This document shows positions 4,021 to 6,270 of a stretch of 64,000 bases of DNA, in pieces. The stretch lies in the NCBI GenBank assembly GCA_964631415.1, contig CAZVZC010000004.1, positions 13,814 through 77,813 on the forward strand. The letters are read 5' to 3'. The DNA comes from an uncultured archaeon. GTDB taxonomy: Archaea > Asgardarchaeota > Thorarchaeia > Thorarchaeales > Thorarchaeaceae. The stretch's first letter is position 1; each line of letters opens with the position of its first letter. Both the position numbers and the translations under genes were made by a program. The notes beneath the pieces were generated by a model. It had not been told where the DNA came from, ran no database searches, and saw only the letters and a program-made list of their open reading frames with translations.

Positions 4021-4740
4021 TTAATGGCTCGCATTGCCGACAGACACAAGACTCATTGAGAGCACAACGGGGTTTCGAATCGGCTTTCTCCAGTCGCGTC
4101 GCTTCGTCTTATGCTTGCCATCGAACCACTCGACGAAGTCCTGTAGGCTCTTCAAGACCTCACCCGGGTTCTCACCCTCGCCGACACGGAAGACCATGAG
4201 CTTCGTCACCACATTGGGTGAAGAATCCCTCATTTCTTCTTGGCACGACATAGAGATCAGCAACTGGGTTGTGTGTTGATTGAGAGTAGCTGGAAGGAAC
4301 TCAAGGTTTCTGATCCATTCGGCCACCAAGCCCGCTCTGCCTTGTGACTCAGCGTAAGATGCAAGATCCAGAGAACTGAGCTCCTTGTTCATCTCAATGA
4401 TATTCTGGGAGATGTAGTAGTGCTGAGAGTATCTCTTGTCTGCCACTTCCGAGTCCGCCTCCTGTGCAAGCACGCCTGCTTCCGACATCAACGCGAGGCT
4501 GCGAAACATGGTCGCTTTGCTCAGACCGGTTGCATTTCTCAGCTCTGCTGGCGTTGTCTTTCCGAACAACATGAGATAGGAGTAAATGGATAGGCAGGAA
4601 TCAATCTTGATGATCCGACTCATCAGTTCCATTGTTCTCAGCTTGGCCTGCAGCTCTGAGTCCGTGCGGTTCGTCGGAATTGTAGTACACCTCCCAACTT
4701 GGGACTGAGATGGTGGACTCCTCCTGGTTGGCGAGTCCAA
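4021..4740 (-). CDS. winged-helix transcriptional regulator with C-terminal helical domain; start TTG 4740 or ATG 4632
   Basis: IYSYLMLFGKTTPAELRNATGLSKATMFRSLALMSEAGVL helix-turn-helix plus wing. Confidence 0.8.
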   Translation of the reverse strand: MDSPTRRSPPSQSQVGRCTTIPTNRTDSELQAKLRTMELMSRIIKIDSCLSIYSYLMLFGKTTPAELRNATGLSKATMFRSLALMSEAGVLAQEADSEVADKRYSQHYYISQNIIEMNKELSSLDLASYAESQGRAGLVAEWIRNLEFLPATLNQHTTQLLISMSCQEEMRDSSPNVVTKLMVFRVGEGENPGEVLKSLQDFVEWFDGKHKTKRRDWRKPIRNPVVLSMSLVSVGNASH

Positions 4741-4743
4741 CCT

Positions 4744-4759
4744 ATCTCATGTGTGAGCC
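4744..4759. promoter_or_regulatory. degenerate copy of operator ATCTCA-N4-TGAGAT (here ATCTCA-TGTG-TGAGCC), below TATA-like TTTTTA
   Basis: Shares 10 of 12 arm bases with the two copies at 5691 and 5716; directly upstream of the wHTH gene. Confidence 0.5.
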
Positions 4760-4785
4760 GTGTAAAAAGCTCACCTACTGTCGCT

Positions 4786-5664
4786 CTAGCTAGCCGTCCC
4801 AATCCTGAGAAGAGCAAACCTTCTGTTGGGGTAGTCGATCACAACTTCTAGGTCCCTCATGAAAGGATACCCGATAATGCCGTCACGTATCAGCTCGCCA
4901 CGGGGCGATACCACCTTCAGGTCGATGACTGCCGCTATTGTGTTCTTTTGGGTGACCGGACCGACAGTGAGGCTATCGATCTGAACACCATATGCCTGTG
5001 CTCTTCCCCCTACGCCTTGGCATCCATCCGCACATCCCCGATTGGTGGGACTGGCAACTTGAACTGCGGCCACCGCCTGATCTTCAGTGAAACCCAGCTG
5101 CTGTGCAATCCGGGGTGTGATTACTGTTCCTCCTGACCCTGTGTCAACCACAAGATGGAAGGGGCCATTTCCATTGATGTACGTTGGCACGCTTATCAGA
5201 TGCGAGTCTTCGACGTACTGCAACTCCTGCCAAGATAGGTTCTTGTCGCGGCGTGAGGTAGCACCCTTCGCCCGCTCCAATTTCATCTTCTTGGCGGGGT
5301 AGTTCACTGACATCACGTAGTTCTTCAGGAATGAGTGCCCGATGACGCCGGGGGTGAAACAGAAACCCCCCATGGCTGAATCGAAGTCTATGACGAGCAC
5401 TTCCTCATTCTCAACAACCTCTGTTCCTATTTGCAGTCTGTCAACCTTGGCAAATGCAACCGGAACACGACCGCCCCCGACACCGGACACAATCTTCCTG
5501 TCACCCTCGTAGGTCCGGATGCTGAGCTCCTCCGCCAGCGATTTTGAAATCGTTGTCGCAATCGCCCCGGTATCCAGTGTGAAGGTGAAGGGGCCCTGCC
5601 CATTCACGAAGACCGGCAGATGCGGATGACCCGACTCAGCACCAATGTCAAACTTGATTTCCAT
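4786..5664 (-). CDS. two-domain retropepsin-like aspartyl protease
   Basis: Two catalytic motifs, FTLDTGA and LVVDTGS, each followed by a GVIG/GIIG(Y)xFL closing motif. Confidence 0.9.
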   Translation of the reverse strand: MEIKFDIGAESGHPHLPVFVNGQGPFTFTLDTGAIATTISKSLAEELSIRTYEGDRKIVSGVGGGRVPVAFAKVDRLQIGTEVVENEEVLVIDFDSAMGGFCFTPGVIGHSFLKNYVMSVNYPAKKMKLERAKGATSRRDKNLSWQELQYVEDSHLISVPTYINGNGPFHLVVDTGSGGTVITPRIAQQLGFTEDQAVAAVQVASPTNRGCADGCQGVGGRAQAYGVQIDSLTVGPVTQKNTIAAVIDLKVVSPRGELIRDGIIGYPFMRDLEVVIDYPNRRFALLRIGTAS

Positions 5665-5690
5665 TGCATTTCACCACGTACTCAATACCC

Positions 5691-5738
5691 ATCTCATTGT
5701 TGAGATATAATACCTATCTCAGTGATGAGATATATTAA
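5691..5738 (-). promoter_or_regulatory. tandem palindromic operators ATCTCA-N4-TGAGAT (5691-5706, 5716-5731) with TATA box TTAATATA (5738-5731)
   Basis: Two perfect 6+6 inverted repeats, 25 bp apart, between the TATA box and protease ATG 5664. Confidence 0.8.
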
Positions 5739-5859
5739 GTCTTTCTGTCGGAACAGAGCTCCCAGCGCGGTTCAGGTGTAGGAGCGTGTTTCTGGATGGA
5801 CACCAGTCAGTCCATCTTTGTTTGCATCAATCCTCGCTTGGTCCGCACGTGCTAAGTCA

Positions 5860-6270
5860 TCAGACGGACACACCATAGTACCACTGGTACCAGTGTTCAC
5901 TGTCGATGGACGCAACAATGGCCGCAGCTGGGTTTGTGTGGCTGCTTGACACAACTCGAGGAGGAACAAGGACCATACCTCCAATCGAAGTGTTGAGAAG
6001 CTCGAACGATCCATCTAAGAATGTAGTCTTGAAGTGCACACGAATCGGAACATCTAGTGGGACTTCCTCTCTATATAGGAACGTGAAGTTTACGGAGTAG
6101 AAGAGCACAGAGTACGATGCGTTCATGTTTAGGTCGTACATCTGTGATTTGTGCCACAATCCCTCGAGCCCATCAATTGTCCTTACGTCAGCAAGAGCCA
6201 CCACCATCCCTGTGACTAAGTAGGCTATGACAATGACTGCGATGCCCGATTGTCGTCTATTCAGCCTCAG
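5860..6270 (-). CDS. small exported or membrane-anchored beta-rich hypothetical protein; probable CTG start upstream of the track ATG 6207
   Basis: Frame stays open 28 codons upstream of 6207 and encodes LRLNRRQSGIAVIVIAYLVTGMVVALA (basic n-region plus hydrophobic helix). Confidence 0.55.
   Translation of the reverse strand: MRLNRRQSGIAVIVIAYLVTGMVVALADVRTIDGLEGLWHKSQMYDLNMNASYSVLFYSVNFTFLYREEVPLDVPIRVHFKTTFLDGSFELLNTSIGGMVLVPPRVVSSSHTNPAAAIVASIDSEHWYQWYYGVSV

What the first reader, a model, noticed from the sequence alone, without database searches (positions are those of the whole stretch)
4021..5738. Three-copy operator links a wHTH regulator to a retropepsin gene
ATCTCA-N4-TGAGAT occurs twice, perfect and 25 bp apart, between the TATA box and the protease start. 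A degenerate third copy lies just upstream of the downstream wHTH gene. The simplest reading is a regulator that represses both the protease and itself. A cytoplasmic aspartyl protease under dedicated tandem repression suggests an inducible stress or proteostasis circuit, possibly one in which the protease cleaves its own repressor (inference).
Basis: partly seen in the sequence, partly recalled or inferred. Interest (0 to 1): 0.6.

Follow-up and report, generated by a model that had tools for sequence, protein, structure and literature searches.

The report
Asgard protease gene with dedicated repressor
In this uncultured Asgard archaeon, a two-lobed aspartic protease gene and the small DNA-binding regulator gene behind it carry the same conserved binding site on their promoters, so the regulator most likely keeps both the protease and itself switched off until some still unknown signal arrives.

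Summary
ATCTCA-N4-TGAGAT occurs twice, perfect and 25 bp apart (5691-5706, 5716-5731). Both copies lie between a TATA-like box and the start of a 292-aa tandem-retropepsin gene. They are the only perfect copies in the 2.16-Mb genome.

The degenerate third copy (4744-4759) is also real. A matrix trained only on other genomes ranks it third in the whole genome, far above background. 17 of 18 related regulator genes carry a matching site.

The composite of TATA box plus two operators sits in front of the protease gene across Thor-, Hermod-, Hod- and Promethearchaeota-labelled MAGs. All 12 exact extended sites found in 400 phylum genomes lie just upstream of such a protease gene. In two genomes the regulator is unlinked, yet the protease still keeps both operators.

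Best reading: a family-specific wHTH auto-repressor that occludes the core promoters. Its regulon is only these two genes. The inducer is unknown, and cleavage of the repressor by the protease remains untested speculation.

Extra finding: the regulator probably starts at a conserved ATT codon 5-7 nt after a strong Shine-Dalgarno sequence.

This is a new member of a known kind. No binding or expression data exist.

The parts
4786..5664 (-). Gene for a 292-aa single-chain, two-lobed aspartic protease made of two retropepsin-like domains. Each half has a D-T-G active-site motif. No signal peptide or membrane segment is visible.
   Evidence: Pfam PF13650 twice, 109 bits. D31-T32-G33 and D174-T175-G176 are conserved in 79 sequences. 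AF2 model pLDDT 83. Whole-chain Foldseek matches to 9iy9 (TM 0.70) and plasmepsins/pepsins (TM about 0.58).
5671..5675 (-). Shine-Dalgarno GGTGA, 6 nt before the protease ATG.
   Evidence: Read from the sequence. The same arrangement is seen in orthologs.
5691..5706 (.). Operator 2 (promoter-proximal), a perfect ATCTCA-N4-TGAGAT. It probably covers the transcription start region.
   Evidence: 29.7 bits with the foreign-trained matrix.
5716..5731 (.). Operator 1 (distal), a perfect palindrome that abuts and overlaps the 3' edge of the TATA box.
   Evidence: 34.4 bits. The TATA+operator composite is conserved in orthologs.
5731..5738 (-). TATA-like box TTAATATA of the protease promoter, preceded by an A-rich BRE-like stretch (5739-5746).
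   Evidence: Conserved at the same place in orthologs. TTAATA, GACTTA and CTTAAA are among the most enriched 6-mers upstream of SD-led ORFs in this genome. Its function as a TATA box is inferred.
4738..4765 (-). Operator 3 in front of the regulator gene (core 4744-4759). Left half degenerate (GGCTCA), right half plus flank perfect (TGAGATAGGT).
   Evidence: 23.8 bits, third-best site in the genome. Equivalent sites occur in 17 of 18 regulator upstream regions, each beating all 200 shuffles.
4761..4768 (-). TATA-like box TTTTTACA of the regulator promoter, directly upstream of operator 3.
   Evidence: Orthologs have CTTTAAAG, TTTAATTG or TTTATAGC at the same place. CTTTTA is enriched upstream of genes in this genome. 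Inferred.
4688..4695 (-). Strong Shine-Dalgarno GGGAGGTG for the regulator.
   Evidence: a match of at least 6 of 8 to GGAGGTGA at the same relative place in 16 of 18 loci.
4678..4680 (-). Probable ATT start codon of the regulator, 6-7 nt after the SD and in frame. It adds 16 residues to the 203-aa ATG form.
   Evidence: In-frame ATT 5-7 nt after the SD in 16 of 18 loci. An in-frame stop lies just before it in 7 loci. It is the only candidate start in L020.
4021..4680 (-). Regulator gene: N-terminal winged helix-turn-helix, a long helix (residues 100-132 of the ATG form) and a family-specific C-terminal part. 219 aa from ATT, 203 aa from ATG 4632.
   Evidence: Pfam MarR_2 23 bits, below cut-off. 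35 homologs, all Asgard-labelled where named. AF2 pLDDT 82. VIA best match 4g6q, Z 9.9, and ArsR/MarR wHTH proteins at Z about 8.

Best explanation
This is a two-gene module of an Asgard (Thorarchaeota-labelled) archaeon. A dimeric winged-helix regulator of an Asgard-specific family binds ATCTCA-N4-TGAGAT(AGGT). Two strong sites lie 25 bp apart, directly after the TATA box of the protease gene. They cover the stretch where TFB and RNA polymerase must load, so transcription of the protease is blocked. One weaker site, with a degenerate left half, occupies the same position at the regulator's own promoter and gives negative autoregulation. The regulator is probably made in small amounts, because it starts at a weak ATT codon behind a strong Shine-Dalgarno sequence. 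An unknown signal, sensed by the regulator's C-terminal part, releases it and switches on a cytoplasmic two-lobed aspartic protease. Shown here: the sites, their conservation, their genome-wide specificity, and their link to both genes. Inferred: binding by this protein, repression rather than activation, the ATT start, and the existence of an inducer.
For: (1) The two perfect sites are the only ones in the 2.16-Mb genome. (2) A matrix trained on 23 sites from other genomes puts operators 1, 2 and 3 as the top three independent sites in the genome (34.4, 29.7 and 23.8 bits). The best other site scores 15.4 and the control reaches at most 17.7. The regulon is therefore just these two promoters. 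(3) The TATA+operator composite is present in 10 of 14 protease loci from relatives. It is also present in the protease promoters of the named Asgard MAG loci, down to about 40% protein identity, while the sequence upstream of the TATA box is not conserved. In 13 of 18 promoters the two best sites are 25, 26 or 30 bp apart. (4) The exact extended site ATATCTCA-N4-TGAGATAGG has 12 occurrences in 10 of 400 phylum genomes, with 0 in the control. All 12 lie just upstream of a tandem-retropepsin gene and point towards it. (5) Strong regulator homologs occur in 6 of 61 relatives, each directly downstream of the protease gene. The same order holds in 12 of 14 named loci. (6) In the two genomes where the regulator sits elsewhere (behind a PAS histidine-kinase gene), the distant protease gene still has two operators of 33-35 bits. 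(7) 17 of 18 regulator upstream regions hold a site that beats all 200 shuffles, always just after an A/T-rich box. (8) The four protease loci without the motif (L023-L026) come from four genomes. In three of them (G023, G008, G032) no regulator was found; in G035 only a weak match confined to the HTH region (E 1.6e-4, on another contig) was seen. (9) The regulator model is a wHTH with a long helix. (10) Established knowledge: archaeal repressors bound over or just after the TATA box block TBP/TFB binding or RNA polymerase recruitment. Passages read in PMC2995911 cite Lrs14, MDR1 and LrpA.
Against: There is no binding, footprint, TSS or expression data. The TATA boxes and start sites are inferred from sequence and from a crude enrichment test. 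G021 and G030 (88% and 92% complete) have an operator-bearing protease promoter, but no regulator was found with either the protein or the family alignment. One regulator locus, L053 (Hodarchaeota-labelled), has no recognisable site at its own promoter. The loci are related and some are near-duplicates (L041=G002, L044=G034, L046~L047), so the counts overstate independence. The window's regulator misses the Pfam MarR_2 cut-off. The C-terminal part has no informative relative, so nothing indicates the signal.
Confidence: 0.75

Rival explanations
1. Protease-repressor feedback switch. The same repressor and operators are at work, but the inducing event is cleavage or capture of the regulator by the protease it controls. 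Once some protease is active the repressor is destroyed and expression locks on. This would work like BlaI/BlaR1, ImmR/ImmA or pro-sigmaE/SpoIIGA.
For: The gene order protease then regulator is conserved in 12 of 14 named loci and in 5 relatives. The regulator's C-terminal 30 residues are conserved (R179, P184 and P188 invariant), yet the monomer model leaves them without secondary structure and at low confidence. A docking or cleavage segment would look like this. Known precedents exist: SpoIIGA, an aspartic protease encoded directly upstream of its substrate pro-sigmaE (abstract of PMC13174948 seen in the listing; the operon order is recalled).
Against: There is no direct evidence. Adjacency is already explained by local regulation. 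In two genomes the two genes are unlinked. The conserved tail may simply be a strand that only forms in the dimer.
Confidence: 0.13
2. The palindromes are bound by a different factor, and the neighbouring wHTH protein has another role.
For: G021 and G030 keep a perfect or partial operator at the protease promoter, though no regulator homolog was found in those assemblies.
Against: Those assemblies are 88% and 92% complete. The regulator's own promoter carries the same motif in 17 of 18 loci. Regulator and operator occur together even when unlinked. In three of the four genomes whose protease promoters lack the motif no regulator was found, and in the fourth (G035) only a weak HTH-only match was seen.
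Confidence: 0.07
3. The regulator is an activator, or a dual regulator, rather than a repressor.
For: Some archaeal regulators switch between activation and repression depending on site and concentration. Ss-LrpB is described this way in passages read in PMC2995911.
Against: All three sites lie after the TATA-like box, not upstream of the BRE where known archaeal activators bind (same review). Two tandem sites cover the likely start region.
Confidence: 0.04
4. The inverted repeats act as RNA hairpins in the protease leader, not as DNA sites.
For: Each palindrome can form a 6-bp stem. The 71-nt leader folds at -17.1 kcal/mol.
Against: The fold is not better than shuffles (z -1.7; 16 of 200 shuffles fold as well). 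The half-site sequence itself is conserved while the loop varies. Many deviations are uncompensated, for example the second base of the left half at all regulator sites. An asymmetric AGGT flank is conserved. Operator 1 abuts the TATA box and is probably not transcribed.
Confidence: 0.01

Closest known systems
Archaeal promoter-occluding wHTH repressors with autoregulation (Lrs14 of Saccharolobus solfataricus, MDR1 of Archaeoglobus, LrpA and Phr of Pyrococcus)
   Same: A small dimeric winged-helix protein with palindromic sites placed over or just after the TATA box. This blocks TBP/TFB or RNA polymerase loading. It also shows negative autoregulation (mechanisms as in passages of PMC2995911). 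There are weak NCBIfam similarities to Sta1/Lrs14 (E 1.6e-4 and 1.4e-3, far below cut-offs) and a weak structural likeness to Phr 2p4w (Z 8.4).
   Different: It is a different protein family: 35 homologs, all Asgard-labelled where named. It has its own roughly 120-aa C-terminal part with no informative relative. The target is a protease gene, two tandem sites sit at the target promoter, and an ATT start is likely. Nothing has been tested experimentally.
MarR/ArsR-type local repressors of bacteria
   Same: A wHTH fold (VIA Z 8-9 to ArsR and MarR proteins). Pfam MarR_2 is the best family, and several homologs carry PF12802 in precomputed annotation. The operator is a pseudo-palindromic 16-mer, the regulator is encoded next to its target, and its regulon is tiny.
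   Different: The window's protein is below the MarR_2 gathering score (23.1 against 27). It lacks the usual MarR N- and C-terminal helical dimerisation bundle in the model. The promoter context is archaeal.
Repressor and protease gene pairs: BlaI/BlaR1 and MecI/MecR1, ImmR/ImmA of ICEBs1, pro-sigmaE/SpoIIGA of Bacillus (recalled, except SpoIIGA, whose abstract was seen)
   Same: A transcription factor gene lies next to a protease gene. In the Bla/Mec systems a wHTH repressor binds dyad operators at the promoter of the protease-sensor operon that includes its own gene.
   Different: In those systems cleavage of the factor by the protease is demonstrated; here it is only a possibility. The proteases differ (zinc metalloproteases, or membrane-bound SpoIIGA), whereas this one is a soluble two-lobed retropepsin-type enzyme.
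Clan AA aspartic peptidases: bacterial retropepsin-like enzymes (APRc of Rickettsia; 9iy9 of Bacteroides fragilis), eukaryotic Ddi1, pepsins
   Same: DTG active-site motifs are present, and two PF13650 domains score above cut-off. Profile matches to 9iy9 (E 3.6e-12), yeast Ddi1 (1.3e-5), plasmepsin II (1.4e-4) and ApRick. The whole-chain fold matches 9iy9 and pepsins.
   Different: It is a single chain of two retropepsin-size halves (292 aa), not a homodimer as in retropepsins or Ddi1, and smaller than pepsins. No export signal is seen. The substrate is unknown.

Membership tests
Clan AA retropepsin-like aspartic peptidase (Pfam PF13650 Asp_protease_2) | Domain match above the curated cut-off | tested here: met
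   109.4 bits against a cut-off of 24.3, in two stretches. NCBIfam TIGR02281 scores 55.1 against 57.95, just below.
Clan AA retropepsin-like aspartic peptidase (Pfam PF13650 Asp_protease_2) | Catalytic Asp-Thr/Ser-Gly in each half, plus a hydrophobic-hydrophobic-Gly motif | tested here: met
   D31-T32-G33 and D174-T175-G176, with G106/G109 and G262/G265, are invariant or nearly so in 79 sequences.
Clan AA retropepsin-like aspartic peptidase (Pfam PF13650 Asp_protease_2) | Two lobes forming one pepsin-like cleft | tested here: met
   AF2 model pLDDT 83, pTM 0.81. Foldseek whole-chain matches to 9iy9 (TM 0.70) and plasmepsins (TM about 0.58, E 1e-10). This rests on a model only.
Clan AA retropepsin-like aspartic peptidase (Pfam PF13650 Asp_protease_2) | Proteolytic activity inhibited by pepstatin or retropepsin inhibitors | not testable with these tools
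   Needs an enzyme assay.
MarR family transcription regulators (Pfam PF12802 / PF01047) | Domain match above the curated cut-off | tested here: not met
   MarR_2 scores 23.1 bits against a cut-off of 27. Some homologs carry PF12802 in precomputed annotation, so the family is borderline.
MarR family transcription regulators (Pfam PF12802 / PF01047) | Winged helix-turn-helix fold | tested here: met
   AF2 model: H28-35, H39-51 and the wing E55-59/E70-74. VIA Z 7-9 to ArsR/MarR wHTH proteins.
Archaeal promoter-occluding auto-repressor (works like Lrs14, MDR1, LrpA) | Operator overlapping or directly downstream of the TATA box at the target promoter and at its own promoter | tested here: met
   By sequence position in the window and in orthologs. 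The TATA assignment is inferred.
Archaeal promoter-occluding auto-repressor (works like Lrs14, MDR1, LrpA) | Specific binding of the protein to the sites, and block of pre-initiation complex formation | not testable with these tools
   Needs EMSA or footprinting and in vitro transcription.
Protease-cleaved repressor systems (BlaI/BlaR1, ImmR/ImmA type) | Regulator and protease encoded together | tested here: met
   12 of 14 named loci and 5 relatives. Unlinked in 2 genomes.
Protease-cleaved repressor systems (BlaI/BlaR1, ImmR/ImmA type) | Site-specific cleavage of the regulator by the protease | not testable with these tools
   Needs an in vitro cleavage assay.

The most novel reading that the evidence does not exclude
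Asgard archaea carry a self-contained proteolytic switch. A soluble two-lobed retropepsin-type protease is held off by a dedicated repressor, whose level is kept low by a conserved AUU start codon. The repressor's conserved C-terminal tail is the protease's docking or cleavage site, so a small amount of active protease removes its own repressor. The circuit then flips on in an all-or-none way. This would be a prokaryotic counterpart of the eukaryotic Ddi1 to Nrf1/SKN-1A logic, in which a retropepsin-type protease acts on a transcription factor to reset proteostasis.
Probability: 0.1. Interest if true: 0.8.

Novelty: new member of a known kind. Interest (0 to 1): 0.45.

Why it matters
[quoted passage not shown] This finding offers a complete, small and directly testable regulator-operator pair. 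It consists of one protein, three sites of graded strength, two promoters and no other targets in the genome. Synthetic DNA and recombinant protein are enough to test it. It also singles out a soluble two-lobed aspartic protease that these organisms keep under dedicated tight control, which suggests the enzyme is harmful when made constitutively and is needed only on a signal. The conserved ATT start would add to signs that gene finders cut proteins short in this lineage (an earlier scan note reports ACG starts in the same genome).

Tried and rejected
1. Complex prediction of protease with regulator, both as alignments: verdict 'no answer' (score 0.00, mark 0.32). It says nothing either way.

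2. Public sequencing runs: no RNA holder is listed.

3. Fold and sequence searches for the regulator's C-terminal part.
- Foldseek against PDB found nothing at E <= 1e-3.
- A profile search against PDB sequences found nothing below E 0.4.
- The best Atlas score was 0.84, below the level at which a hit means anything.
- VIA-wide gave one unannotated protein, 4g6q, at Z 9.9.
- No function can be read from these.

4. Sites with one mismatch in the core: 15 besides the two perfect ones, against 4 in the control. With the extended matrix only one of them exceeds 15 bits, and none exceeds the control maximum. They were rejected as regulon members.

5. The first TATA-word script used too strict a gene set (193 genes) and gave nothing. 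The relaxed version (751 genes) gave the enriched words.

6. RNA-structure readings were not significant. The protease leader gave z -1.7 and the regulator leader z -1.9.

8. Literature.
- Three papers that hold all the terms retropepsin-like, archaea and aspartic protease were seen by abstract only, and none deals with Asgard proteases.
- None of the 15 listed papers for Asgard/aspartic protease/retropepsin contains 'Asgard'.
- 5 papers hold 'AUU start codon' and 'archaea', and by title and abstract none is about an archaeal AUU-started gene.
- None of the 10 listed papers for Asgard archaea plus transcriptional regulator/operator/palindromic holds 'Asgard archaea'.
- These searches cover only the held library.

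9. Earlier notes of this scan: no look-alike of the regulator was found and no note matched the search words.
Full report
**What is in the sequence.**
On the minus strand the region reads, in order: an A-rich stretch, TTAATATA (5731-5738), operator 1 (5716-5731), operator 2 (5691-5706), GGTGA (5671-5675) and the ATG of a 292-aa ORF (4786-5664). Both operators are perfect ATCTCA-N4-TGAGAT, with starts 25 bp apart. Chance expectation for a perfect copy in the window is 0.00, and 0 of 100 shuffles had any. They are the only two perfect copies in the whole 2,157,830-base, 85%-complete assembly, and the backwards-read control gave 0.

The two units share more than the palindrome. Both are flanked by ATAT on the left and by (A/G)GGTAT on the right, so the repeat is really about 25 bp long. 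The third copy (4744-4759) has two mismatches, both in one half. By the 16-mer alone it is not beyond chance: 8 sites with up to 2 mismatches against 5.13 expected.

**The genes.**
The 292-aa product has two PF13650 retropepsin-like domains (109 bits). An Asp-Thr-Gly motif is conserved in each half across 79 homologs. Its AF2 model (pLDDT 83) matches, over the whole chain, a Bacteroides fragilis putative endopeptidase (9iy9, TM 0.70) and pepsin-family enzymes (TM about 0.58). A family profile also finds yeast Ddi1, plasmepsin II and the Rickettsia retropepsin ApRick among solved structures. It is therefore a single-chain, two-lobed clan-AA aspartic protease. I see no signal peptide or membrane segment in the sequence, so I infer that it is cytoplasmic.

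The downstream ORF (4021-4632 from its first ATG) has a weak MarR_2/IclR helix-turn-helix match below the Pfam cut-off and weak Sta1/Lrs14 matches. Its model (pLDDT 82) is a winged helix-turn-helix followed by a long helix (100-132), a second helix and an unstructured tail. The best structural neighbours are ArsR/MarR-type regulators and one unannotated actinobacterial protein (4g6q, Z 9.9). The family is small. Only 35 clusters were found among 5.8 billion proteins, and where a source names them the labels are Thorarchaeota or Hodarchaeota. The protease family is labelled Thor-, Hermod-, Sif- and Promethearchaeota, with bacterial tandem-retropepsin proteins at about 30% identity. An earlier scan note also calls this genome Thorarchaeota.

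**Is the motif functional? Evidence within the genome.**
I trained a 28-nt matrix on 23 sites (up to 2 core mismatches) taken only from protease promoters of other genomes, excluding the window's genome and its close relative G002. I then scanned the window's whole genome with it. The three best independent sites are operator 1 (34.4 bits), operator 2 (29.7) and the third copy (23.8). The next site scores 15.4, and the same genome read backwards reaches at most 17.7. The degenerate third copy is therefore a real member of the motif. As far as an 85%-complete assembly shows, the regulon is these two promoters only. There are 15 sites with one core mismatch against 4 in the control, but none of them stands out with the extended matrix.

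**Evidence from orthologs.**
- The protease gene was found in 14 of 61 relatives, including the window's genome.
- Of the 14 loci whose upstream regions I read, 10 show the TATA-operator composite. The other 4 (L023-L026) have another coding region running up to the protease start and no motif.
- A search with the regulator family in species-representative genomes gave 14 named Asgard MAG loci. 12 of them have the protease gene directly upstream on the same strand.
- Their protease promoters read, with little variation, TTAATAT-ATCTCA-N4-TGAGATAGGT, then a short spacer, then ATATCTCA-N4-TGAGATAGG. The sequence upstream of the TATA box is not conserved.
- In 13 of 18 promoters the two best sites are 25, 26 or 30 bp apart.
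- The exact extended site occurs 12 times in 10 of 400 genomes of the phylum, all in the window's family, with 0 control matches. All 12 lie a few tens of bases upstream of a tandem-retropepsin gene and face it.

**Link to the regulator.**
Strong regulator homologs were found in 6 of 61 relatives, each directly after the protease gene. Two further weak hits cover only the HTH. 17 of 18 regulator upstream regions hold a forward-oriented site that beats all 200 shuffles of the same region. The site always lies directly after an A/T-rich box (CTTTAAAG, TTTAATTG, TTTATAGC; TTTTTACA in the window). The left half is consistently weaker (G[GA]CTCA or GTCTCA) and the right half with its flank is near-perfect (TGAGATAGGT). 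The exception is the Hodarchaeota-labelled L053.

In two genomes the regulator gene sits behind a PAS histidine-kinase gene, with no protease nearby. The protease gene is found elsewhere in those genomes and still carries two operators of 33-35 bits. The pairing of regulator and operator therefore does not depend on adjacency. Of the four genomes whose protease promoters lack the motif, three (G023, G008, G032) yielded no regulator. The fourth, G035, yielded only a weak match confined to the HTH region.

Some results go against a strict rule. G021 and G030 (88% and 92% complete) have an operator-bearing promoter but no detectable regulator, with either the single protein or the family alignment. 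In G025 the contig ends at the protease gene.

**Mechanism.**
TTAATA, GACTTA, CTTAAA and CTTTTA are among the most enriched 6-mers in the 18-100 nt upstream of 751 SD-led ORFs of this genome. This fits the two A/T-rich boxes being TATA boxes. With the usual archaeal spacing (recalled: TATA centred near -26), operator 1 would span about -24 to -7 and operator 2 about +3 to +18. Archaeal regulators bound over or just after the TATA box repress by excluding TBP/TFB or RNA polymerase, whereas activators bind upstream of the BRE. I read the relevant passages of PMC2995911, which cite Lrs14, MDR1 and LrpA.

I therefore read the system as follows. Two dimers bind the strong tandem sites and shut the protease promoter tightly. 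One dimer binds a weaker site at the regulator's own promoter and holds its level steady. Binding, repression and the existence of an inducer are all inferences. Nothing indicates what the signal is.

**The ATT start.**
In 16 of 18 regulator loci a match of at least 6 of 8 to GGAGGTGA is followed, 5-7 nt later, by an in-frame ATT. In the window the SD is at 4688-4695 and the ATT at 4678-4680.
- In 7 loci an in-frame stop lies within or just before the SD, so the frame cannot start further upstream.
- In 8 loci the codon aligned to the window's first ATG is ATT, ATC or GTC, so that ATG is not a conserved start.
- In L020, ATT is the only start-like codon between the stop and the HTH. In L051 the only others are ATA and a TTG placed inside the SD.
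- The two exceptions (L022, L030) have an ATG instead.
- The 16-17 codons after the ATT stay open in all loci, and they begin with similar residues (Ile-Pro/Ser, then Lys/Ser-rich).

I conclude that the regulator very probably initiates at ATT, giving 219 aa in the window. Such a weak start would keep the repressor scarce.

Nothing here shows that the protease cuts the regulator. The conserved but unmodelled C-terminal tail and the conserved gene order are compatible with cleavage. Both also have simpler explanations. I rate this idea at about 0.1.

**Limits.**
All evidence is comparative. The loci are related and some are near-duplicates. The assemblies are incomplete. No transcription start, binding or expression data exist. 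The paper searches cover only the held library.

**Verdict.**
The finding is a real, conserved and highly specific regulator-operator module of Asgard archaea. It belongs to a familiar mechanistic kind, the local auto-repressor that occludes core promoters. It involves a new regulator family, an unusual target (a soluble two-lobed retropepsin-type protease) and a probable conserved ATT start.

Noticed in passing
window 4678-4695 (-); loci L020, L041-L054: The regulator probably starts at a conserved ATT codon 5-7 nt after a strong Shine-Dalgarno sequence (16 of 18 loci). Gene finders instead pick an internal ATG/TTG or a TTG inside the SD.
   Followed up: yes
window 4786-5664 (-): The protease is a 292-aa single chain of two retropepsin-size halves. 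Its model matches pepsin-family enzymes over the whole chain, and its family profile finds both Ddi1 and plasmepsin. It looks like a minimal two-lobed aspartic protease, which may bear on how pepsins arose from retropepsin-like domains.
   Followed up: partly
L021/L030/L032 (G027:C1:521645-524857): One relative has three tandem paralogs of the protease gene in a row, followed by a single regulator gene. Operators lie in front of the first protease gene and in front of the regulator.
   Followed up: partly
L048 1987-4639; L051: In two genomes the regulator gene, with its own operator, follows a 625-aa PAS sensor histidine-kinase gene instead of the protease gene. This may hint at the signal input.
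   Followed up: partly
window 4021-4110 (-), regulator residues 174-203: The regulator's C-terminal tail (pattern K-R-D-W-K-K-P-L-x-x-P-V-V-L-S-I) is among its most conserved parts, yet the monomer model leaves it without secondary structure. It could be a dimer strand or a docking segment.
   Followed up: no
window 4681-4742 (-): The regulator leader of the window and of G002 is about 40 nt longer than in other loci. It can form a hairpin that pairs CACC with the GGTG of the Shine-Dalgarno sequence. One base pair differs by a change on both sides between the two genomes. The fold is not significant (z -1.9), and two sequences are too few to judge.
   Followed up: partly
window 5860-6207 (-): A 115-aa ORF lies between the Na+/H+ exchanger gene and the protease promoter. 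It has no Pfam family and is 76% identical in G002, where the local DNA is 84% identical. It is unclear whether it is a gene.
   Followed up: partly
G000:C12:36927-36942 and G000:C47:10823-10838: The same one-mismatch 16-mer variant of the palindrome occurs on two different contigs. It may be part of a duplicated sequence.
   Followed up: no
protease promoters of L042, L044, L018, L052 against the others: Operator spacing falls into two classes: 25-26 bp (9 promoters) and 30 bp (4 promoters). That is roughly 2.5 against 3 helical turns, which would place the two dimers on different faces of the DNA.
   Followed up: no
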